From contig CAVURN010000001.1 of the NCBI GenBank assembly GCA_963743915.1, positions 704,001 to 768,000 on the forward strand: DNA of 64,000 nt. The letters run 5' to 3'. The stretch's first letter is position 1; every line of letters starts with the position of its first letter. This stretch comes from an uncultured Actinomycetota bacterium. Its GTDB lineage: Bacteria; Actinomycetota; Actinomycetes; JAHEKZ01. Below, in pieces: positions 49,316-60,986 of this stretch. The position numbers and the translations under genes were made by a program. Under the pieces are notes generated by a model. The model saw nothing but the letters and a program-made list of their open reading frames with translations, searched no databases and was not told the origin of the DNA.

Positions 49316-50522
49316 ATGACTGACCTGAACCCATTTTCGAGCCCGGTCGCGGGCCTGCGGCGCCCCACCGGCCTGTCGCGGCGAGGCTTCCTCCGCGGGG
49401 TCGGTGCCACCGGCGCCGCAGCTGCGGGTGCCGGCCTGCTGGCCGCGTGCGGAAGCGACGACGGCGGCGGCGACGGCGGCAGCTCGGGGGGGAACGACGA
49501 CCCGATCCTGAACTTCGCCAACTGGCCGCTGTACATCGACCAGCTCAAGGGGGACCAGAAGGCCCCCGGAACCACGATGGCCGGATTCGAGGACGAGACC
49601 GGCATCACCGTGAACTACACCGAGCCGGTGAACGACAACGAGGAGTACTTCGCCAAGATCCGCCCGATCCTCGCGGCGGACAAGGACGTCGGTGTCGACT
49701 CGTTCGTGCTCACCGACTGGATGGCTTCCAAGCTCATCAATCTCGGGTGGCTGCAGAAGTTCGACAAGGCCAACATCCCGAACTTCGACAACCTCGTGCC
49801 GAAGCAGCAGTCGCCGGAGTTCGACCCGAACCGCGACTACTCGATCCCGTGGCAGTCCGGCAGCACCGCGATCGCGTACGACTCCAGCCAGATCGACGAG
49901 GTCACGTCCATCAGTGACCTGCTCACCAACCCCGAGCTCAACGGCTCCATCACGGTGCTGAAGGAGATGCGGGACACGATGGGCCTGATCCTGCTCGACC
50001 AGGGAGCAGACCCGGCCGACTTCACCGACGACGAGTGGGCCTCGGCCATCGCGGCGCTGCAGGCGGCCAAGGACTCCGGCCAGATCCGGCAGTTCACCGG
50101 GAACAACTACGCGCAGCTGCTCGCCAAGGGCGACATCAAGGCCTGCATCGCGTGGGCCGGTGACGTGATCCAGCTGCAGTTCGACAACCCGAACATCAAG
50201 TACTACATCCCCGAGGCCGGCGCCATGCTGTGGTCGGACAACATGCTCATCCCGATCAACGCTCAGCACAAGGAGAACGCTGAGAAGTGGATGAACTACT
50301 ACTACGACCCGAAGGTGGCGGCGACGCTCTCCGCTCTGGGTGAACTACATCTCGCCCGTGGCCGGTGCGCAGGAAGAGGTGCGGAAGATCGACCCCGAGC
50401 TCGCCGACAACCCGCTCATCTTCCCGACCGAGGAGGACTACTCGAAGCTGCACATCTTCCGCGGCCTGACCGACGAGGAGGAGACCAAGTACGCCTCCGA
50501 GTTCCAGGACATCGCGGTCTAG
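49316..50522 (+). CDS. Polyamine ABC transporter substrate-binding protein (PotD-like Tat lipoprotein); indel near 50335
   Basis: SRRGFLRG Tat motif plus LLAAC lipobox; NWPLYID, PWQSG, PEAGAMLWSDNM; C-terminus VNYISPV... in the next frame. Confidence 0.9.
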
Positions 50523-50647
50523 TCCCACGGGCTTTCCTTTCGGGGGCACCCTTGCCACACTGAGCCATCGCACCAGGTGGCAGGGGTGCACCCGAGGCCC
50601 AGAACCGACCCGACGACCCACCCCGACGAGCCGACGAAGCAGGACCG

Positions 50648-51817
50648 ATGAGCGAACAGATGACAGCCCCGGCACCAGGCCCCGCCGCGTCCGGTGGCGG
50701 CGCGGACCTTCACATCGTCGACGTCACGAAGCAGTTCGGCAGCTTCAAGGCGGTCGACGACCTGACGCTCACCATCCCGGCGGGCTCCTTCTTCGCCCTG
50801 CTCGGCCCCTCCGGCTGTGGCAAGACGACCACCCTGCGCATGGTGGCGGGTCTCGAGCAGCCGACCGCCGGCCGGATCGTGATCGGCAGCGAGGACGTCA
50901 CCCACCGCAAGCCGTACAAGCGCCCCGTCAACACCGTGTTCCAGTCCTACGCGCTCTTTCCCCATCTGGACATCTTCGAGAACGTCGCCTTCGGACTGCG
51001 CCGCTCGGGCAAGAAGAAGGACATCCGCTCCGAGGTCGAGGCGATTCTCGAGCTGGTCGAGCTCACCACCTATGCGCGCCGCAAGCCGACCCAGCTCTCC
51101 GGCGGGCAGCAGCAGCGCGTGGCGGTGGCCCGAGCCCTCATCAACAAGCCCGAGGTGCTGCTGCTCGATGAGCCGCTCGGGGCGCTCGACCTCAAGCTCC
51201 GTCGCCAGATGCAGATCGAGCTCAAGCGCATCCAGACCGACGTCGGCATCACCTTCGTGCACGTCACGCACGACCAGGAAGAGGCCATGACCATGGCCGA
51301 CACCATCGCGGTCATGAACGCCGGACGGATCGAGCAGATGGGTGCCCCCATCGACCTCTACGAGAACCCGGTCACCACCTTCGTCGCGAACTTCCTCGGC
51401 CAGTCCAACCTGTTGGAGGGTCGACTGACCGGCAAGAGCGGCGGCGACGCGCTGCTCGAGGTCCACGGCCAGCGGATGGCTCTGCCCACGGCTCGCGTGC
51501 ACTCCGACCGGGACGACGTGTGGGTCGGGGTACGCCCGGAGAAGATGCAGATCAGCCGCGCCGGCACCGCCGTGAACGGGGAGAACGCGGTGACCGGGGT
51601 GGTCACCGACGCCAGCTACATCGGCGTCTCCACCCAGTACCTCGTCCAGCTCCCCTGGGGCCAGGAGGTCGGCGTCTTCTCCCAGAACCTCTCGACCGAA
51701 GGTCCCCTCAGCAACGGGGACGAGGTGGTCCTCCACTGGAACCCGGCTCACACCTTCGCCCTCGATGCGACCCAGGACGCGGAGGCTGGCGCCGAGAAGG
51801 TCGAGGGAGACGAGTGA
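50648..51817 (+). CDS. Polyamine ABC transporter ATP-binding protein (PotA-like)
   Basis: [39 protein letters not shown]. Confidence 0.93.
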
Positions 51818-52810
51818 GCGCGGCTCCAGCGCCGGGAGCGGCAGCGTCCGCACCCCTCGACGACGTCGCGCGTCCGGTCGGAGCACACTCCTGGACGCCG
51901 TATGCGCTGCTGACGCCGGGCATGCTCTGGCTCGCGGTGTTCTTCCTCGTGCCCGACCGTGATGCTCGTGTACATGTCGCTGTCGACGGGCACGGCCTTC
52001 ACCGGTGACGGCACCTTCAGCTTCAACTGGCAGTTCTCGAACTACACCGACGCCGTCAGCGAGTACGTCATCGACGAGCCGATCTTCCAGAAGTCGTTGA
52101 TCTACGCGTTGATCGCCACCGTGCTCTGCCTGGCCATCGCGTACCCGCTCGCCTACACCATCGCCTTCAAGGCGGGACGCTGGAGGAACTTCCTGCTGGT
52201 CCTGGTGATCGCGCCGTTCTTCACCAGCTTCCTGCTCAGGACCAACGCGTGGCAGACCATCCTGTCGGACAACGGGGTGGTCGTCGGCGTGATGAAGGAC
52301 CTAGGGATCCTGAGCTTCCTGAACACGGTCATCAACACGCCTGACTCCTGGCCGAGCTGGACGCAGATCTTCCCCGAGGGCATCACCGCCGACGACCGGG
52401 TGCTGTCCACGCCGCTGGCGGTCATCCTGGGCATCACCTACAACTTCCTGCCGTTCATGACCCTGCCGCTGTACGCCAGCCTCGAGCGGATCGACGTCCG
52501 GCTGATCGAGGCGGCGACCGACCTCTACTCGTCGGCGTGGACGGCGTTCCGCAAGGTCACCTTCCCGTTGTCGCTGCCCGGTGTCGTGGCGGGCACGCTG
52601 TTGACGTTCATCCCTGCCGCCGGTGACCCGGTCAACGCGTTCCTGCTCGGGTCGAGCAACGACCAGCTCATGGGCAACGCGATCGACTCGCAGTTCAAGT
52701 CGACGGGCAACTATCCGCTCGCCGCAGCGCTGTCGGCGATGCTGATGGTGGTGATCGTCGCCATGGTCGCCCTGTACGTGCGCCGTGCCGGCACCGAGGA
52801 GCTGGTCTGA
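51814..52810 (+). CDS. Polyamine ABC transporter permease (PotB-like); indel near 51955
   Basis: PYALLTPGMLWLAVFFLVP | ...PFFTSFLLRTNAW, YNFLPFMTLPLY, EAATDLY. Confidence 0.9.
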
Positions 52811-53686
52811 TGTCCACCGTGACGATCGAGGAGCGACGCGCCCGCGCGCTCGCCGAACTGCCGCCCTACCGCGAGCCGGGTGTGGGCACCCGCTTCGTCC
52901 GGTGGTTGCGCGCCCATCTGATCCAGTTCCTGGCCGCGTTGGCGCTGCTCTACATGTTCGTCCCGGTGCTGCTCGTCGTGGCGTTCTCGTTCAACGACCC
53001 CGCCGGCAAGTACAACTACACCTGGAACCAGTTCTCGACCGCGGCATGGACCGACGTGTGGCAGGACGCCCAGATCACCGACTCGGTCACGCTGAGCATC
53101 GAGATCGCGCTGCTCAGCACCGCTGTCGCCACGATGCTCGGCACCCTCATCGCCTTCGCCATCGGCCGTCACCGGTTCCGCGGCCGCGGCGGCACCAACC
53201 TGCTCATCTTCATGCCGATGGCGACCCCCGAGGTCGTCATGGGCTCCTCGCTGCTCACGCTCTTCGTCGCCGCGGGTCGTGAGGGTGAGCTCGGATTCGC
53301 GCACGATCACCATCGCGCACATCATGTTCTGCATCAGCTTCGTGGTCGTCACCGTGAAGGCCCGGATCGCCGGTCTCGACCCGCGTCTCGAACAGGCCGC
53401 CATGGACCTCTATGCGGATGAGAAGACCACCTTCCGCAAGGTCACCTTCCCGCTCGTGCTCCCGGGCATCGTGGCGGCTGCGCTGCTCGCCTTCTCGTTG
53501 TCGTTCGACGACTTCGTGATCACCAACTTCACCAGTGGCCAGACCCTGACCTTCCCCATGTACGTCTGGGGTGCGGCCGGTCGAGGCATCCCGCCTGAGG
53601 CGAACGTGGTCGGGGCCATCATGTTCGGCATCGCCCTGGTGATCGTCATCATCCCCGAGCTGGTCAAGCGGTTCCGCAAGCGCTGA
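52810..53686 (+). CDS. Polyamine ABC transporter permease (PotC-like); indel near 53290
   Basis: AFSFND, PEVVMG | IAHIMFCISF, EQAAMDLYA, SLSFDDFVIT. Confidence 0.9.
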
Positions 53687-53759
53687 GCGGTCTCGCAGGT
53701 GGCCGGGGTCACGTCGCTGACCTCGCGGTGGTGCTCCATACTCGTGGCGAGGTGAGAGC

Positions 53760-55194
53760 GTGTCCGGAGTCCTGTCGAACGTCCCCGTCAGTGCGGCGAG
53801 CATCCGCGCGTCCCTGAAGGACGCGCAGCCGGCGTCCTTCTGGCTCGATGACCCAGACGGCGCCCGAGCCGCGTCCGACGCTGGCCGAGCACCTGCGCTG
53901 CGACCTGCTGGTGGTGGGTGGCGGCTTCACCGGGCTCTGGACCGCGCTGCTGGCCAAGGAGGAGGACCCGTCGCTCGACGTGGTCCTCGTGGAGGGCGAG
54001 CGGATCGGCTGGGCCGCCACGGGACGCAACGGCGGCTTCGTGTCCTCCAGCCTGACCCACGGTCTGCCCAACGGCGTCGACCGGTTCGCCGACGAGATGC
54101 CGACCCTGCTGCGCCTGGGCGACGAGAACCTCGATGCGATCGAGGAGACCATCGCCCGGTACGGGATCGACGCGCAGTGGGAGCACAACGGTGAGCTGAC
54201 CGCCGCCTACGAGCAGTGGCAGGTCGACGAGCTCGGCCACTACGTGGAGCAGGGCAAGGAGTACGGCGTCGACATCGAGCTCTGGGACGCCCAGCGCATG
54301 CAGGAGGAGGTGCACTCACCGACCTACCTGGGCGGACTGCACGAGCCGCACGGCACGGCACTGGTGAACCCGGCCCGACTCGCGTGGGGACTGGCCGACG
54401 GCTGCGGAGAGCCTCGGGGTCCGGATCTTCGAGCGGAGCAAGGTCACCGGTCTGGCCGAGGAGGGCGGCCAGATGGTCGCGTCCACCGGCTACGGCCAGG
54501 TGCAGGCACCGAAGGTCGCGCTCGCGACCAACATCTTCCCCAACCTGGTGCGCCGAGCCCGGTCCTACGTGATCCCGGTGTGGGACTACGTGCTGATGAC
54601 CGAGCCGCTGTCGCCCGCAGCAGATGGACTCCATCGGCTGGCGGCACCGGCAGGGGATCGGCGACGGCGGCAACCAGTTCCACTACTACCGGCTCAGCAG
54701 CGACAACCGCATCCTCTGGGGCGGTTACGACGCGATCTACCACTTCGGCAACGGTCTGGGCGAGGAGCTCGCCCAGCGCCCGGAGTCGTTCGTCCGGCTG
54801 GCGGAGCACTTCTTCACCACCTTCCCCCAGCTCGAGGGGGTGCGGTTCAGCCACACCTGGGGCGGTGCCATCGACACCTCCACGCGGTTCTGTGCCCTGT
54901 GGGGCCAGGCGTACGGCGGCAGGGTCTCCTACGTGCTCGGGTACACCGGGCTCGGGCGTGGGCGCGACCCGGTTCGGGGCGCAGGTCATGCTCGACCACC
55001 TGCACGGACGCCGCACGGAGCGGACCGAGCTGCAGATGGTCCGCAAGAAGCCGGTCCCCTTCCCGCCGGAGCCGGTGAAGTCGGCCGGCATCCAGCTCAC
55101 CCGGTGGTCGATCGCCCGGGCGGACCGCCAGGAGGGGAAGCGGAACCTCTGGCTCCGGAGTCTGGACCGTCTGGGACTCGGCTTCGACTCCTGA
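53760..55194 (+). CDS. FAD-dependent oxidoreductase (DadA/PuuB-like amine oxidase); several indels
   Basis: SFWLD, DLLVVGGGFTGLWTAL, GWAATGRNGGF, WGGAID, GYTGLGVGATRFGA across several frames. Confidence 0.85.
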
Positions 55195-55225
55195 TCACAA
55201 GATGTAAGGCGAACGTCGATCTGCC

Positions 55226-55238
55226 TGACACTGTGTCA
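55226..55238. promoter_or_regulatory. Putative operator TGACA-N3-TGTCA
   Basis: Perfect dyad upstream of mmsA; variants at 47455-47467 (upstream of pucR) and 58524. Confidence 0.5.
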
Positions 55239-55311
55239 CTTGAACGGGCGCGGCACCGGTGGACCAGAGTGGAGCCCGGTGCCGAGATGCGGCGCGTTGG
55301 CAGGAGGCACA

Positions 55312-56809
55312 ATGACCAAGCACGTGACCCACTGGATCGACGGCAAGCTCCACGGCGGCGTCGCCGAGCGCCAGGGTGACATCTTCGACCCGGCCACCGG
55401 ACAGGTCAGCGGTCACGTCGACTTCGCCGACGTGGCCATCGTGGACGAGGCCGTGGCCGCGGCGAAGGCCGGCGTTCGCGCGAGTGGCGCCACGCGTCGC
55501 TCACCAAGCGGAGCCAGGTCCTGTTCAAGTTCCGTGAGCTGCTCGACGCCCGCAAGGGAGAGATCGCCGAGCTCATCACCGCCGAGCACGGCAAGGTGCT
55601 CTCGGACGCGCTGGGTGAGGTCACGCGCGGCCAGGAGGTCGTCGAGTTCGCCTGTGGGATCCCGCACCTGCTCAAGGGCGGCTTCTCCGAGAGCGTCTCG
55701 ACCCGGGTCGACGTCTACTCGATCCGTCAGCCGCTCGGCGTCGTCGGCATCATCTCGCCGTTCAACTTCCCGGCCATGGTGCCCGATGTGGTTCTTCCCC
55801 ATCGCCATCGCCGCGGGCAACGCGGTCATCGTCAAGCCGAGCGAGAAGGACCCGTCGGCCGCCAACTTCATCGCCGAGCTCTGGGCCGAGGCGGGGCTGC
55901 CCGCGGGTGTCTTCAACGTGGTGCACGGTGACAAGGTCGCCGTCGACCGGCTGCTCGAGCACCCCGACGTCAAGGCCGTCTCGTTCGTCGGCTCCACGCC
56001 CATCGCCCGGTACGTCTACGAGACCGGGACCAAGAACGGCAAGCGGGTGCAGGCCCTCGGCGGGGCCAAGAACCACATGCTCGTGCTGCCGGACGCCGAT
56101 CTCGACCTGGCGGCCGACCAGGCCATCAACGCAGGGTTCGGGTCGGCCGGCGAGCGCTGCATGGCCATCTCCGCGCTGATCGCGGTCGACAGCATCGCCG
56201 ACGACCTGATCGCGAAGATCACCGAGCGCATGGGGACCCTGCGCACCGGTGACGGTCGCCGCGGCTGCGACATGGGGCCGTTGGTCACCGCGCAGCACCG
56301 CGACAAGGTCGCCGGCTATGTCGCCGCCGGGGTCGAGGAGGGCGCATCGCTGGTGGTCGACGGCCGCGAGGTGCAGCCGGACGGTGAGGCCGGATGGCTT
56401 CTGGCTCGGCCCCACGCTGTTCGACAACGTCACGCCCGACATGAGCATCTACACCGACGAGATCTTCGGACCGGTGCTGTCGGTGGTGCGCGTGCACTCC
56501 TACGACGAGGGCCTCAAGCTCATCAACGACCACCCGTACGGCAACGGGACCGCGATCTTCACCAACGACGGTGGCGCCGCGCGCCGCTTCCAGAACGAGG
56601 TCGAGGTCGGCATGGTCGGCATCAACGTGCCGATCCCGGTGCCGATGGCCTACTACTCGTTCGGGGGCTGGAAGAACTCCCTCTTCGGCGACACCCACGC
56701 GCACGGCATGGAGGGCGTGCACTTCTACACCCGCGGCAAGGTCGTCACCAGCCGCTGGCTCGACCCGAGCCACGGCGGCATCAACCTCGGCTTCCCGCAG
56801 AACGCCTGA
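55312..56809 (+). CDS. mmsA: CoA-acylating methylmalonate/malonate-semialdehyde dehydrogenase; several indels
   Basis: [24 protein letters not shown]|[44 protein letters not shown]. Confidence 0.9.
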
Positions 56810-56899
56810 GCCGGCGTCCCGCAGAACGCCGAGCTGCTCACCTCGCTCACCCGCTTGGGTGATCGACCCGCGAGCGCTCAAGGTCGATGCTTACTGACT

Positions 56900-57424
56900 G
56901 TGAGCACCGGGGGAGCACGCGACGTCATTCGGGTCATCACCGACTTCCGGAGAGCGTTGGGCGAGGTGGCGCCGCAGGACTGTCCTGAGGCTGCCGCCGA
57001 GTTCCTCTGTGAGCTCTTCGAGGGCTCGGCGACGGCGCTCAACCTGATGGACTACGGCCAGACCCGGTTCCAGACCGTGACGAACGTGGGTCGGCTGACG
57101 CGGGACGAACGCCGCGTGCCGCTGGGTGAGTACTACGGGTTCGCCGACTTCCCCATGACGACGCAGGCGCTGGCGAAGGGTGCGGCCTACCGGTCCTCCC
57201 TGCTCGACCCCAACTGTCCTCCGGAGTACCGCACGCTGTTGAGCGCGCAGCGTCGCACCGATTGCATGGGGGCCCCGATCCGCCTCTCCGGCCGTCCGGT
57301 GGGGGAGTTCTGGGTCTCCCGTGACTCCGGTCGGCCCTTCACCGAAGTCGACGAGGACTTGGCGGTCGCCTGCGGCGCCACGCTCGCCCGCTACTTCCGG
57401 CCGAGCTGGGCTCACGCCGGCTGA
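56900..57424 (+). CDS. Stand-alone GAF-domain protein
   Basis: YGFADFPMTTQAL, CMGAPIRLSGRPVGEFWVSR...PFTEVDEDLA GAF pattern; start uncertain. Confidence 0.75.
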   Translation: MSTGGARDVIRVITDFRRALGEVAPQDCPEAAAEFLCELFEGSATALNLMDYGQTRFQTVTNVGRLTRDERRVPLGEYYGFADFPMTTQALAKGAAYRSSLLDPNCPPEYRTLLSAQRRTDCMGAPIRLSGRPVGEFWVSRDSGRPFTEVDEDLAVACGATLARYFRPSWAHAG

Positions 57425-57451
57425 GTCGTTCCCGGTCGGTAGGGTTCGCGC

Positions 57452-58480
57452 ATGACGCGCTACGGCCCCATGTTCGGCCCTGACATCACCTTCCTCGGCG
57501 TGCCCGCCTGTGACCTCGACGAGCCGGACACGTACGCGGACGCCGACGTGGTGATCGTGGGTGCGCCGTTCGACGGTGGCACCAGCCACCGCCCTGGCAC
57601 GCGGTTCGGTCCCATGGCCATGCGCTCCACCGACTACCTACCGCACGACGGCGTCCGCCCGCACATGGCGATGCGGGTCGAGGCCTTGACCGAGGACCTC
57701 CGCGTGGTCGACGCGGGTGACCTCGAGGTCTACTCGGGCGACGTCGTGCGCAGCTGTCAGATCATCGAGGACGCGGTGGCCACCATCGCTGAGTCCGGCA
57801 AGATCCCGCTCGTGCTCGGCGGCGACCACACCGTCACCTGGCCGGACGTCACCGGGGTCGCCCGCGCCGCCGGCTACGGCCGGGTGTCGGTGATCCACTT
57901 CGACGCCCATGCCGACACCGGCGACATCGAGTTCGGCTCGCTCTACGGACACGGCCAGCCCATGCGCAGGCTCATCGAGTCGGGTGCTGCGCGCGGCGAC
58001 CGCTTCCTGCAGCTGGGGCTGCGCGGCTACTGGCCCGGCCCGGACATCCTCGACTGGATGGCCGACCAGAACATGCGTTCGTTCCACATGAGCGAGATCG
58101 TCGCCAAAGGCCTCGACGCGGTGCTGGACGAGGCCTTCACCATCGCCACCGACGACTGCGACGGGATCTTCCTGTCGGTCGACATCGACGTCTGCGACCC
58201 CGGGCACGCCCCCGGTACCGGCACCCCGGAACCGGGGGGACTGACCGCCCGCCAGCTGCTCGACGCCGTCTCGCGCATCTGCTACGAGCTGCCCGTGCTC
58301 GGCGTCGACGTGGTGGAGGTCTCCCCGCCCTACGACCACGCCGAGATCACCGCCTTCCTGGGCAACCGGGTGGTGCTCGAGGCCCTCTCCGGCATCGCAC
58401 GACGCCGCAAGGACGGCGGCCAGGTGCGCTGGGACCGGGCCACCCCGCTGCTCGACGGGCGTGGCTCCGGGTCCGTCTGA
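57452..58480 (+). CDS. speB: Agmatinase / ureohydrolase
   Basis: PGTRFGP, LGGDHT, HFDAHAD, SVDIDVCDP..APGTGTPEPGG, DVVEVSPPYD. Confidence 0.9.
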   Translation: MTRYGPMFGPDITFLGVPACDLDEPDTYADADVVIVGAPFDGGTSHRPGTRFGPMAMRSTDYLPHDGVRPHMAMRVEALTEDLRVVDAGDLEVYSGDVVRSCQIIEDAVATIAESGKIPLVLGGDHTVTWPDVTGVARAAGYGRVSVIHFDAHADTGDIEFGSLYGHGQPMRRLIESGAARGDRFLQLGLRGYWPGPDILDWMADQNMRSFHMSEIVAKGLDAVLDEAFTIATDDCDGIFLSVDIDVCDPGHAPGTGTPEPGGLTARQLLDAVSRICYELPVLGVDVVEVSPPYDHAEITAFLGNRVVLEALSGIARRRKDGGQVRWDRATPLLDGRGSGSV

Positions 58481-58643
58481 GACCCTCTCTGACCTGGGCA
58501 ATATCACTCTCCGTAACATCGCCTGACACTGTGTGTTCACCCGTATGGCGGTCTAACGATGTCGCTCTCCGGCACGAAGTAATCACTGTGGGGGTGACGT
58601 TGTGCACTTCCCGCTCGTCGCGACTGAAATGGGAAGGGGAGCG

Positions 58644-58751
58644 ATGAAGAACATCAAGTCAGAGATGGTGGTCCGAGGCAGCGCTGCTGCGGTGGGCCTC
58701 ATGGTGCTCGTGTCCGTTGTCGGGGCCGGCACCAAGTGGATGAACAACTAA
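58644..58751 (+). CDS. Small hydrophobic peptide 1 (35 aa), putative signal-peptide precursor
   Basis: MKNIKSEMVVRGSAAAVGLMVLVSVVGAGTKWMNN*; SD GGAAGGGGAG; paralogous to the next ORF; not in the ORF track. Confidence 0.8.
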   Translation: MKNIKSEMVVRGSAAAVGLMVLVSVVGAGTKWMNN

Positions 58752-58764
58752 AGGAGGCGATCAC

Positions 58765-58871
58765 ATGATGGACGAGCTCAAGGCTCGCGTGATCGTCTCC
58801 GTGCTGGGCAGCGCCGCCACGGTGGTGACCCTGGCATCTGTGGTCGGAGCCGGAAAGAAGTGGGCCGCTAA
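58765..58871 (+). CDS. Small hydrophobic peptide 2 (about 35 aa), putative signal-peptide precursor
   Basis: MMDELKARVIVSVLGSAATVVTLASVVGAGKKW; perfect SD AAGGAGG; as assembled it reads on to 59070, but one extra G in tggg gives ...KKWGR* ending at TAA 58869-58871. Confidence 0.75.
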
Positions 58872-60986
58872 CGACACCAGAAGGGGGAGCCGTCGATCGT
58901 TCGGCGGCTCCCCTTCTTCGTCGTCCCGAGTGGGCGCTTTCGGCCTACATCTGGGCCGTCATCGTCGACGGGGCTGCTGCTCCTGGTCGTGTCACTCTTC
59001 CTGGCACCGCTGTCCGAGGCCTTCGGGGTCGACGCATGGGGCGGATACCCCTCCCAGGGACTCGTGCTGACCCTGCTCGTGGGCACGGTGATCATCGGGG
59101 AGCTGCGCCCCGTCCCGGTGCCGCGCGGCGGCGACACCGCCGACATGATCACCATCTCCACCACGTTCACCCTCACGCTGGCCATCGTGGGTCCGGTGAG
59201 CGTCGCCCTGCTCGCCCAGGCGGTCGCTGTGCTCATCGACGACGCGATCTCCCGTCGGTCCCCGGTCAAGATCGCCTTCAACGTCGCGCAGTACACGATC
59301 ACGGTGATGGCCGCCCATACCGCGTACTCCCTCGTCGTCGGCGAGCCGGTCTTCGGGCCCTACAACTACTTCGACCACAACGCGCTGGAGCTCGCAGGTG
59401 CCTGGTCGCCGCCTTCGTCTTCCTGCTGGTGAACCAGGCACTGGTCTCCACCGTGGTCTCGCTCGCCTCCGAGCAGCGCGTCCGTACCGTCTTCGTGCAG
59501 GACCTGCGCTTCCAGGCGATGACCGCCGGCGTCCTCTCGATCCTCGCCCCCGTGGCAGCGCTCGTGGTGCAGGCGCAGCCGCTGATGCTCCCGATGCTGA
59601 TCGCGCCGGTCGCTGCGGTCTACAACAGCGCGCAGGCTCGCCGTCGCGATGGGTCGTCAGGCGAGCCACGACGCGCTGACCGGCCTGGCCAACCGCGAGC
59701 TGTTCCGCGAGCGGGCGGTCAAGGCACTCGAGGACTCGCAGCGGACCGACCAGCCCCTGGCGATCATGATGATCGACCTCGACCACTTCAAGGAGATCAA
59801 CGACACCCTCGGCCACCAGGTGGGCGACGAGCTGATCTGCGAGGTCGCTCACCGGCTGGAGGAGGCACGGCCAGCGGGTGCCACGGTGGCCCGCCTCGGT
59901 GGCGACGAGTTCGCGGTGCTCCTGCCGGACATCCCCGACCTCTCGGTCGCTGAGGACGTGGCCACGTACCTGCTGTCGGTCCTCGGCAAGTCGTTCTCGG
60001 TGGGCGGTGTCCGGCTGGTGGTGCAGGCGAGCCTCGGCATCGCCCTTGCTCCTGACCATGGCGACGACGTCCACACGCTCATGCGCCGCTCCGACATCGC
60101 GCTCTACGAGGCGAAACGCGAGCGCGCACGCTTCTGTGCCTACACCTCCGAGGACGAGGACACCCACACCCCGCAACGTCTCACGATCCTCACCGACCTG
60201 CGGTCGGCGGTGGAGGAGGACGAGCTCTTCCTCGTCTACCAGCCGAAGATCGATGTCGCGAGCGGCGAGGTCGCCGGTGTCGAGGCGCTGGTGCGCTGGA
60301 ACCACCCCACCCGCGGCATCCAGTACCCCGACACGTTCATCCCGCTGGCCGAGAACACCGGTCTCATCACACCGATCACGTGGTTCGTGGTGGAGCGCGC
60401 CCTCCGTCAGGTGCGGACATGGCAGGAGAACGGGATCGACCTGTCGGTCGCGGTCAACCTCTCGGTGCGCCACCTCACCGACATGAGTCTGCCGGACCGG
60501 ATCGCGGTCGCCCTCGAGCGCTGGGGGGTGGCACCGTCCAAGCTGGTGGTCGAGGTCACCGAGAACAGCATCATGACGGACCCGAAGCGTGCGACGGTCG
60601 TGCTGCAGCAGCTGCGCAGGATCGGCGTCGAGATCGCGATCGACGACTACGGCACCGGCCATGCGTCCCTGAACTACCTCAAGCGCTTCGACATCGACGA
60701 GCTCAAGGTGGACAAGTCGTTCATCATGAACCTGGACCCCGACTCGAGCGACGCGATCATCGTCGCCTCCACCATCGAGCTCGGCCACAACCTCGGGCTG
60801 CGGATCGTCGCCGAAGGGGTCGAGGACGCCGCGACGCTCGAGTGGCTCGGCGGCCTCGGGTGCGACATCGCGCAGGGCTTCCACATCGGGCGACCGATGA
60901 CTCCGGAGGCCATCGTCGAGGTCGTGCGTGAGCGCGGCGGGGACCACCGGTCCGCTGGTCCGCTGCGTCTGGTCGGGAGCAGCTGA
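58860..60986 (+). CDS. Polytopic membrane GGDEF-EAL (diguanylate cyclase/phosphodiesterase) protein; indels near 58862, 58967, 59400, 59640
   Basis: N-terminal multi-TM region split over frames; HDALTGLANR, DLDHFKEINDTLGH..GD, RLGGDEF, YQPK, EALVRW, DDYGTG, LKVDKSF, AEGVE, QGF; start inferred. Confidence 0.9.
58879..58917 (+). terminator. Strong hairpin immediately after the peptide genes
   Basis: AGAAGGGGGAGCCGTCGA-tcgt-TCGGCGGCTCCCCTTCT. Confidence 0.75.

What the first reader, a model, noticed from the sequence alone, without database searches (positions are those of the whole stretch)
58644..58871. Unannotated pair of paralogous micropeptides with a conserved C-terminal motif
Peptide 1 is MKNIKSEMVVRGSAAAVGLMVLVSVVGAGTKWMNN and peptide 2 is MMDELKARVIVSVLGSAATVVTLASVVGAGKKW(GR). 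They align as K-x-x-hydrophobic...GSAA...L-x-SVVGAG-x-KW. The stop of peptide 1 overlaps the AAGGAGG SD of peptide 2. Neither has a Cys, so they are not lipoproteins, and no RiPP modification enzyme is adjacent. Two variants could be agonist/antagonist or address different receptors (inference).
Basis: seen in the sequence. Interest (0 to 1): 0.8.

Follow-up and report, generated by a model that had tools for sequence, protein, structure and literature searches.

The report
Paired membrane micro-proteins heading c-di-GMP operon
Two tiny neighbouring genes encode related membrane-helix peptides of about 34 residues that evolution clearly preserves in uncultured actinobacteria, and they head an operon for a membrane enzyme that makes and breaks the signal molecule c-di-GMP, so they probably help control that enzyme, though this is untested.

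Summary
The pair is real. pepB (from 58765) matches up to ...GAGKKW, but the window has no in-frame stop there and the frame runs to 59070. All 18 relatives end 1-3 residues after Trp. A 97%-alike DNA contig carries one extra base that gives KKWAR-stop, so the window probably has an assembly indel.

Both peptides are under purifying selection (dN/dS about 0.1-0.2). They have no Pfam, NCBIfam or Rfam match and occur almost only in uncultured Actinomycetes.

Across several families the peptides sit directly upstream of a membrane GGDEF-EAL gene with a weakly MASE9-like sensor domain, followed by a DUF5317 gene. That enzyme's only universal start codon lies inside the Lys-Trp codons of the last peptide ORF, and a 13-15 bp GC hairpin follows about 12 nt after its stop. 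Extra pairs without the enzyme exist in this family and are also under selection.

Best reading (about 0.5): the peptides are membrane partners of the c-di-GMP sensor enzyme and are translationally coupled to it. Function is untested.

This scan noted the same family earlier on other DNA (e1-1461940, e1-2362190).

The parts
58631..58641 (+). Shine-Dalgarno-like GGGAAGGGGAG, ending 2 nt before the pepA ATG
   Evidence: Read. The same GGGAAGGGGAGCG precedes pepA in most relatives.
58644..58751 (+). pepA: 35-aa single-helix peptide ending GAGTKWMNN, stop TAA
   Evidence: Orthologues appear. dN/dS is 0.14. RNA-library contigs of 3 studies cover it.
58751..58757 (+). AAGGAGG Shine-Dalgarno of pepB, sharing a base with the pepA stop
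58765..58871 (+). pepB: B-type peptide ending ...GAGKKW. As assembled, the frame has no stop until 59070. With the one base that relatives carry after 58866 it ends KKWAR-TAA at 58869-71.
   Evidence: dN/dS is 0.18.
58860..58862 (+). GTG inside the Lys-Trp codons (AAGTGG) of pepB: the likely start codon of the GGDEF-EAL gene
   Evidence: An in-frame GTG or ATG lies at -9 to -15 in 21 of 31 loci. In L038, L039, L045, L050 and L076 it is the only feasible start. In L059, L060 and L080 the frame opens exactly there.
58879..58917 (+). GC-rich hairpin followed by TTCTTCGTCGTC, lying in the first codons of the enzyme gene. It could be a terminator/attenuator or a reinitiation aid.
   Evidence: Fold (-38.9 kcal/mol for 70 nt, z -4.2). 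Of 36 distinct junctions, 31 have a stem of at least 9 bp, starting a median of 12 nt after the stop.
58860..60986 (+). Membrane GGDEF-EAL gene with a polytopic, weakly MASE9-like N-terminal domain. In the window its frame is broken near 58866, 58968, 59400 and 59634.
   Evidence: Pfam GGDEF and EAL hits. MASE9 scores 18 bits against a cut-off of 24.3. Frame switches versus an intact orthologue are, and the indels are absent from contig X1.
60986..61396 (+). DUF5317 membrane protein gene. Its ATG shares one base with the enzyme's TGA.
   Evidence: Pfam PF17248, E 8e-13. tblastn finds it after the enzyme gene in 57 of 101 loci longer than 3 kb, including distant ones.

Best explanation
pepA and pepB are real genes for two paralogous single-pass membrane micro-proteins of about 34 residues. 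Each has a charged N-end, a hydrophobic helix of about 20 residues and an invariant V-G-A-G-x-K-W near the C-end. The residue x is uncharged in the first peptide and Lys or Arg in the second. They are the first two cistrons of an ancestral operon: pepA, pepB, a membrane GGDEF-EAL enzyme with a MASE9-like sensor domain, and DUF5317. Shown: coding and purifying selection; synteny across several actinobacterial families; the enzyme's reading frame opening at a GTG or ATG inside the Lys-Trp codons of the last peptide ORF; a conserved GC hairpin about 12 nt after that ORF's stop; and enzyme-less extra pairs that are also under selection. Inferred: the enzyme is translated by ribosomes that have just finished pepB (termination-reinitiation). 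The hairpin either terminates most transcripts, giving many peptides and little enzyme, or holds the ribosome near the start codon. The two peptides insert into the membrane, possibly in opposite orientations, and bind the intramembrane sensor domain and/or DUF5317 to set c-di-GMP synthesis against breakdown.
For: Coding: dN/dS is 0.14 for pepA and 0.18 for pepB over 16 orthologous loci. Variable columns by codon position are 12/10/29 and 22/14/30 of 32.
Conservation: M1, L22, V26, G27, A28, G29, K31 and W32 are invariant in 37 sequences. A profile search found 68 short representatives among 1.84 billion proteins. 48 loci were confirmed in genome contigs, nearly all uncultured Actinomycetes MAGs plus Cellulomonas sp. 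APG4.
Synteny: a GGDEF-EAL gene of one cluster lies directly downstream on the same strand in 48 of 78 fetched loci. Some of these are the same place fetched twice. They include distant loci with peptide identity of 38-58%. DUF5317 follows it.
Start overlap: the enzyme frame is +2 relative to the last peptide in 27 of 31 loci, with the embedded GTG or ATG as the universal start. The same offset holds in 17 of 19 loci of two further families.
Hairpin: 31 of 36 junctions.
Membrane character: the hydrophobic core averages 19.6 and 21.3 residues. The K+R bias is N-side in 35 of 35 A peptides and balanced or C-side in 32 of 35 B peptides.
Trans function: enzyme-less secondary pairs have dN/dS of 0.35 and 0.09.
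Sensor domain: the MASE9 authors propose ligand binding within the membrane (bioRxiv 10.1101/2021.11.05.467447, passages read).
Weak hint of expression: whole contigs from RNA libraries of 3 of 3 laid runs, from three studies, cover 58598/58607/58635 to 58862-58865 with 2 differences each. DNA carry-over in those libraries is not excluded.
Against: There is no direct evidence of binding, membrane insertion or any effect on c-di-GMP. Thirty of the 78 fetched loci have peptide pairs with unrelated neighbours: Dtd, an RTX protein, DUF1348, DUF2252, histidine ammonia-lyase and isochorismatase. The peptides can therefore work without an adjacent enzyme gene. More distant homologues of the sensor domain, such as those in the large-genome family f3, lack the peptides: only 3 of 18 such loci have one. 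The MASE9 match is below Pfam's cut-off. In some clades the second ORF is a short non-membrane peptide that keeps only G-x-K-W-x-stop, which points to a cis role for that ending. The window's own copy is frame-broken as assembled.
Confidence: 0.5

Rival explanations
1. Pure cis-acting leader ORFs. Only the act of translating pepB matters: stopping just past the embedded start codon and next to the hairpin controls read-through and translation of the enzyme. The peptides themselves have no function.
For: The start codon lies inside the Lys-Trp codons and the hairpin sits about 12 nt after the stop. In several clades the last ORF is a roughly 20-aa non-membrane peptide that keeps only G-x-K-W-x-stop. 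The C-terminal part is the most conserved part.
Against: Purifying selection acts along the whole helix, not only at the end. pepA has the same motif but no overlapping start. Secondary pairs with no enzyme gene downstream are kept under selection, with dN/dS of 0.35 and 0.09. G-A-G is kept through synonymous codon changes.
Confidence: 0.13
2. Exported signal precursors. Each peptide is essentially a signal peptide cut after G-A-G, releasing a tiny x-K-W-x peptide sensed outside the cell, perhaps by the neighbouring sensor enzyme. The two variants would act as different signals.
For: The layout has a positive N-end, a hydrophobic stretch and small residues (G-A-G) before a short variable tail. 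Recalled, not tested here: Phr, SHP and enterococcal inhibitor peptides derive from comparably small precursors.
Against: The hydrophobic core of about 20-21 residues is anchor-length. The hydrophobic part is as conserved as the tail. No peptidase, exporter or RRNPP-type receptor is conserved nearby. B peptides carry their positive charge on the tail side.
Confidence: 0.1
3. Autonomous membrane-active peptides: a two-peptide bacteriocin or a type I toxin-like pair that merely happens to sit upstream of the enzyme in many genomes.
For: There are multiple copies and tandem arrays with their own hairpin terminators in varied neighbourhoods. The genes are two adjacent small hydrophobic peptide genes.
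Against: No immunity gene, C39-type exporter or double-glycine leader is conserved. The link to the enzyme and DUF5317, with overlapping start and stop, is kept across families. No antisense RNA was sought.
Confidence: 0.12
4. Not genes: chance ORFs in a conserved non-coding leader.
For: No family match in Pfam, NCBIfam or the Atlas.
Against: The codon-position pattern and dN/dS indicate coding. Frames are open with fixed lengths of 33-35 aa in all relatives. Both have a strong Shine-Dalgarno.
Confidence: 0.02

Closest known systems
Small single-pass regulators of membrane sensors (MgrB and SafA acting on PhoQ). Named from my own knowledge and also named in earlier scan notes; no paper was read here.
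   Same: Peptides under 50 residues with one membrane helix, proposed to act on a membrane-embedded sensor protein.
   Different: No sequence relation was found (no Pfam or NCBIfam hit). Here there are two paralogous peptides. They are encoded in the same operon as the sensor with an overlapping start. The output is c-di-GMP, not a histidine kinase. Binding is not shown.
MASE9 membrane sensor domain (Galperin and Chou, bioRxiv 10.1101/2021.11.05.467447; passages read)
   Same: The neighbouring enzyme has a polytopic N-terminal domain with conserved charged and polar residues in the membrane part. It gives a weak MASE9 hit. MASE9 is reported to occur with GGDEF-EAL outputs.
   Different: The score of 18 bits is below the 24.3 cut-off in 2 of 3 proteins tested, and there was no hit in the third. 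The paper's passages mention no partner peptides. Its Figure S5 and supplements could not be seen.
Oppositely oriented pairs of small membrane proteins, such as the paired SMR transporters EbrAB and YdgEF. Recalled, not read here.
   Same: Two adjacent paralogous small membrane proteins with different K+R bias: A is N-side in 35 of 35, B is balanced or C-side in 32 of 35.
   Different: These have one helix each, not four. Topology here is inferred from charge alone.
Leader and arrest peptides that control a downstream gene (TnaC, SecM, MifM). Recalled, not read here.
   Same: A short ORF with a conserved C-terminal motif near its stop sits directly before the regulated gene, with an RNA structure at the junction.
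   Different: The whole peptide is conserved and hydrophobic. Copies exist with no downstream target. At 34 residues the peptide is too short for a helix to leave the ribosome tunnel before termination.
Class IIb two-peptide bacteriocins. Recalled, not read here.
   Same: Two adjacent genes for small peptides rich in small-residue helix-packing motifs.
   Different: No leader, exporter or immunity gene is conserved beside them.

Membership tests
MgrB/SafA-type small regulators of sensors | Single-pass membrane peptide under 50 residues | tested here: met
   33-35 aa with a hydrophobic core averaging 19.6 and 21.3 residues. Insertion is inferred from sequence only.
MgrB/SafA-type small regulators of sensors | Sequence membership in a described family | tested here: not met
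   No Pfam or NCBIfam family at E up to 10, except a chance-level BagZ_FevE hit at E 0.097.
MgrB/SafA-type small regulators of sensors | Direct binding to the sensor, changing its output | not testable with these tools
   Needs two-hybrid or pull-down tests and c-di-GMP measurements.
RiPP precursor peptides | Modifying enzyme encoded beside the precursor, with a conserved leader and a variable core | tested here: not met
   Neighbours differ between locus groups and include no radical SAM, cyclodehydratase, lanthipeptide enzyme or peptidase-exporter. The whole peptide is conserved and only 0-4 tail residues vary.
Class IIb two-peptide bacteriocins | Double-glycine leader plus a dedicated ABC exporter and an immunity gene in the locus | tested here: not met
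   No such gene is shared between locus groups. The window's ABC genes at 49316-52810 are a solute-binding-protein importer set.
Type I toxin-antitoxin | Overlapping or adjacent antisense RNA that represses the small hydrophobic toxin | not tested
   No strand-specific raw reads were available. Rfam found nothing.
Phr/SHP-type exported peptide signals | Cognate RRNPP/Rgg receptor gene adjacent; short h-region and a processed C-terminal peptide | tested here: not met
   No such neighbour was found. The hydrophobic core is about 20 residues. Processing itself is not testable here.
MASE9 (PF20972), for the neighbouring enzyme's N-terminal domain | Score at or above Pfam's gathering cut-off of 24.3 bits | tested here: not met
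   18.0 bits (E 0.0028) and 14.0 bits (E 0.05) in two orthologues, and no hit in the Cellulomonas one. It is therefore called 'MASE9-like' only.
GGDEF-EAL c-di-GMP enzymes, for the neighbouring gene | GGDEF and EAL domains above cut-off with intact signature motifs | tested here: met
   PF00990 at 155-158 bits and PF00563 at 249-251 bits. GGDEF and EAL motifs are readable in the orthologue translations. Activity was not tested.
Leader/arrest peptides (TnaC, SecM, MifM) | Acts only in cis on the gene directly downstream | tested here: inconclusive
   Start overlap and hairpin are present at enzyme-linked loci. Enzyme-less pairs are nonetheless conserved under selection.

The most novel reading that the evidence does not exclude
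The two micro-proteins form an oppositely oriented heterodimer in the membrane and are the missing input of a MASE-type intramembrane sensor. They gate a bifunctional c-di-GMP enzyme together with DUF5317. The extra, enzyme-less pairs in this family act as alternative inputs that compete for the same sensor. The enzyme can only be made when pepB is translated, because its start codon lies inside pepB's invariant Lys-Trp codons next to a hairpin. The cell would thereby fix the peptide-to-sensor ratio at the level of translation.
Probability: 0.2. Interest if true: 0.8.

Novelty: new variant of a known kind. Interest (0 to 1): 0.62.

Why it matters
What the membrane-embedded (MASE-type) input domains of c-di-GMP enzymes sense is a long-standing gap. 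A dedicated pair of micro-proteins, co-translated with such an enzyme, gives a concrete and testable candidate for that input or for its modulator. It also adds an undescribed, widely conserved small-protein family that most annotation leaves nameless. The start codon embedded in an invariant Lys-Trp next to a hairpin is a neat case of coding and regulatory constraints sharing the same bases. One cultured carrier, Cellulomonas sp. APG4, makes bench tests possible.

Tried and rejected
Complex prediction: sensor domain + pepA + pepB of the L034 set with alignments A2-A4 gave no verdict. The score was 0.00 in both runs, the controls were not run, and the partner's fold was uncertain. This counts neither for nor against binding.

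Family and RNA searches:
- Pfam and NCBIfam on the peptides found nothing, apart from a chance-level hit at E 0.097.
- Rfam on 58300-59100 found only CRISPR-DR34 at E 0.4, below its gathering score.
- The sigma-70 promoter and U-tail terminator consensus scan found 0 sites. The hairpin lacks a clean U-run.
- The ESM Atlas returned only unnamed clusters at scores up to 0.89.

Homology search: the 35-aa query was too short for the search for homologous proteins. The 49-aa upstream-extended ORF was used instead.

Earlier scan notes: nothing by pepA sequence or by place.

Sequencing runs: no run holds half or more of the stretch's words (best share 0.29). The window's indels could therefore not be checked on its own reads. 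All laid runs were contigs, so transcript ends, strand and level cannot be read. Stretches without RNA cover are not evidence, and the 3' ends of the RNA contigs near 58863-58866 may simply be assembly breaks at the inverted repeat.

Programmed -1 frameshifting from pepB into the enzyme frame was considered and rejected. No slippery heptamer is conserved, and in L059, L060 and L080 the enzyme frame opens exactly at the embedded GTG.

A first gene filter by GC3 alone failed and was replaced by a GC3/GC2 filter.

Literature: three searches found no description of these peptides: 'MASE9'; 'small membrane protein' + GGDEF + EAL + upstream; and small proteins/transmembrane/Actinobacteria/paralogous/c-di-GMP. 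The Streptomyces RmdB preprint (10.1101/2020.04.24.060822, passages read) mentions no upstream peptides. Supplements of papers were closed.

Full report
**What is in the window.** On the + strand, 58644-58751 encodes MKNIKSEMVVRGSAAAVGLMVLVSVVGAGTKWMNN followed by TAA, preceded by GGGAAGGGGAG (58631-41). The stop shares a base with AAGGAGG (58751-57), and ATGATG follows at 58765. In frame, however, it continues as AANDTRRGS... and stays open to 59070, 101 aa.

**The window carries indels.**
- In 18 of 18 relatives' loci the second peptide stops 1-3 residues after Trp and is 33-35 aa long.
- A DNA contig from run X1 covers 58400-59170 with 22 differences. It has one extra base after 58866 plus 58868 C>A, which reads KKW-A-R-TAA.
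- The same run lacks a base at 58968, has an extra C after 59400 and lacks a base at 59634.
- Two of these (59400, 59634) are where tblastn with an intact orthologue shows the downstream gene switching frame. The third (58968) lies in a GGGG run where the window's reading of the enzyme's N-terminal region shifts frame.
- An aldehyde dehydrogenase gene at 55240-56862 is also split over frames.
- Four frame breaks within 800 bases, all absent from a 97%-alike relative, point to assembly errors and not to a decayed locus. No run holding the window's own sequence was available (best share 0.29), so this stays an inference.

**The two ORFs are genes.**
- The stretch is found by DNA search in 19 of 41 genomes, G000 included: 12 of 13 of the same genus, 17 of 19 of the same family, and 1 weak 33-nt match elsewhere in an unpublished genome that was not used.
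- Over 16 orthologous loci, pooled dN/dS is 0.14 for pepA and 0.18 for pepB (median pairwise 0.12 for both). Variable columns by codon position are 12/10/29 and 22/14/30 of 32.
- In 37 aligned sequences M1, L22, V26, G27, A28, G29, K31 and W32 are invariant.
- A profile search of 1.84 billion representatives gave 68 hits at E up to 0.001, all 29-103 aa.
- A word-based search gave 29 hits, unnamed or 'hypothetical protein'.
- pepA's exact sequence is a called but nameless protein in public collections.
- Pfam, NCBIfam, Rfam and the Atlas give no family.
- The own genome (90% complete) has only this pair.

**Who has them.** A scan of one genome per species confirmed 48 loci. Almost all are uncultured Actinomycetes MAGs, with labels such as Nanopelagicales, Sporichthyaceae and Streptomycetales. 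One is an isolate, Cellulomonas sp. APG4. Among 35 distinct pairs the first peptide has T (28), V, I, A or Q at position x of G-A-G-x-K-W. The second has K (24) or R (10), and T once.

- Within the family the order is: GAF protein, arginase-family gene, pepA, pepB, membrane GGDEF-EAL gene.
- Clustering the flanking genes of all fetched loci put one GGDEF-EAL cluster directly downstream on the same strand in 48 of 78 loci. Some loci are the same place fetched by two tools. Distant loci with peptide identity of 38-58% are included.
- The enzyme is about 700-790 aa, with clear GGDEF and EAL domains. Its polytopic N-terminal domain of about 250 residues gives only a sub-threshold MASE9 hit: 18 and 14 bits against a cut-off of 24.3, and none in the Cellulomonas protein. 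The domain has many invariant charged and polar residues.
- The MASE9 authors propose ligand binding inside the membrane (bioRxiv 10.1101/2021.11.05.467447, passages read).
- A DUF5317 gene follows, its ATG sharing a base with the enzyme's TGA. tblastn finds it in 57 of 101 loci longer than 3 kb. Most of the loci without a hit are enzyme-less or have flanks too short to reach it.
- Homologues of the sensor domain occur in 125 of 301 sampled genomes of the class; this tally includes four unpublished genomes.
- Close homologues carry the peptides: of 19 loci from two further families, only one (L107) showed no upstream K/R-W-ending ORF within 330 nt, and 17 have the last such ORF in the +2 frame. 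Only 3 of 18 more distant loci have them.

**The junction.**
- In 27 of 31 loci with the sensor motif downstream, the enzyme frame is +2 relative to the last peptide and stays open back across its end.
- The one universal in-frame start is the GTG embedded in the Lys-Trp codons AAGTGG. It becomes ATG where Lys is AAA, as in L037 and L049.
- In L038, L039, L045, L050 and L076 no other start precedes the first membrane helix. In L059, L060 and L080 the frame opens exactly there.
- In the window this GTG is 58860-62. It is in frame with the enzyme only once the missing base is allowed for.
- Of 36 distinct junctions (one of them spurious), 31 carry an uninterrupted stem of at least 9 bp, mostly 13-15 bp. 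The stems start a median of 12 nt after the stop, and 31 have z at or below -3. The stem sequence differs between clades while the encoded residues are not conserved.
- In some clades the second ORF is a non-membrane peptide of about 20 residues that still ends G-x-K-W-x-stop in the same frame relation.
- Together these features fit termination-reinitiation coupling. The hairpin would act as an attenuator or as a barrier that keeps the ribosome near the start. Neither role is shown.

**The peptides are more than a leader.**
- Relatives in the same family carry extra pairs, up to three in tandem, always in the order T-type then K-type. Their neighbours are unrelated: Dtd, an RTX protein, DUF1348, DUF2252, histidine ammonia-lyase and isochorismatase.
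- Each extra pair is followed by a strong hairpin 25-45 nt downstream, in 10 of 11 loci.
- These enzyme-less pairs have dN/dS of 0.35 and 0.09.
- The hydrophobic core averages 19.6 and 21.3 residues. The K+R bias is on the N side in 35 of 35 first peptides and balanced or on the C side in 32 of 35 second peptides. This suggests, but does not show, opposite orientation in the membrane.

**Expression.** Each of the three RNA-library runs laid, from three studies, holds one whole contig covering the pair: 58598-58863, 58607-58862 and 58635-58865. Each has the same two differences: a synonymous change at 58691, and TAA to TAG at 58751. These are contigs from libraries that may contain DNA, and their ends may be assembly breaks. 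This is only a weak hint.

**Verdict.**
The interpretation as paralogous conserved micropeptides is right. The signalling idea is untested and not favoured.
- The best reading (about 0.5) is a pair of membrane micro-proteins that are translationally coupled to, and probably act on, a MASE9-like GGDEF-EAL enzyme together with DUF5317.
- The rivals are a pure cis-leader role, exported signals and autonomous membrane-active peptides.
- The complex prediction gave no verdict.
- Three literature searches found no description.
- Earlier notes of this scan on other genomes describe the same family and reach a similar reading: e1-1461940 and e1-2362190, with a related case in e1-1164643. They served as leads. 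The synteny, coupling and DUF5317 link were re-tested here.

Noticed in passing
window 55240-56862 and 58860-60986: Several genes are split over reading frames: an aldehyde dehydrogenase and the GGDEF-EAL gene. For the GGDEF-EAL gene, the breaks are absent from a 97%-alike contig of another run. The assembly seems to carry single-base indels, so any frame-based reading elsewhere in this window needs care.
   Followed up: partly
window 49316-58480: Upstream lies a cluster that looks like uptake and breakdown of a polyamine or guanidino compound: a solute-binding protein, an ABC ATPase with a TOBE domain, a permease, an FAD oxidoreductase, an aldehyde dehydrogenase, a GAF protein and an arginase-family enzyme. 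The last two stay next to the peptide pair throughout the family.
   Followed up: partly
L027 / L053 (G009:C70), about 7970-9160 in L027: Three tandem copies of a whole peptide pair with its terminator hairpin, spaced about 510-530 nt apart. The first peptide of these copies resembles the B type but keeps Thr at position x.
   Followed up: partly
L016 / L044 (G016:C3): This genome has two A-type copies and an extra 50-aa ORF that carries the G-A-G-V-K-W motif followed by a second ...G-V-K-W-L-G ending, ahead of the enzyme gene.
   Followed up: no
L070 (6079-6580): A single peptide (...VVGAGWKWL) is followed about 70 nt later by a DUF5317 gene with no GGDEF-EAL gene between them. This hints that DUF5317 may be a partner in its own right.
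   Followed up: no
window 58598-58865 in runs X15, X16, X19: RNA-library contigs from activated sludge, sediment and wetland studies are identical to each other over the pair, including the same two differences from the window.
   Followed up: partly
window 58500-58643: The 163-nt spacer upstream of pepA is conserved at the DNA level within the genus, from about 37 nt before the ATG and in some relatives further. It matches no Rfam family. The promoter was not located.
   Followed up: no
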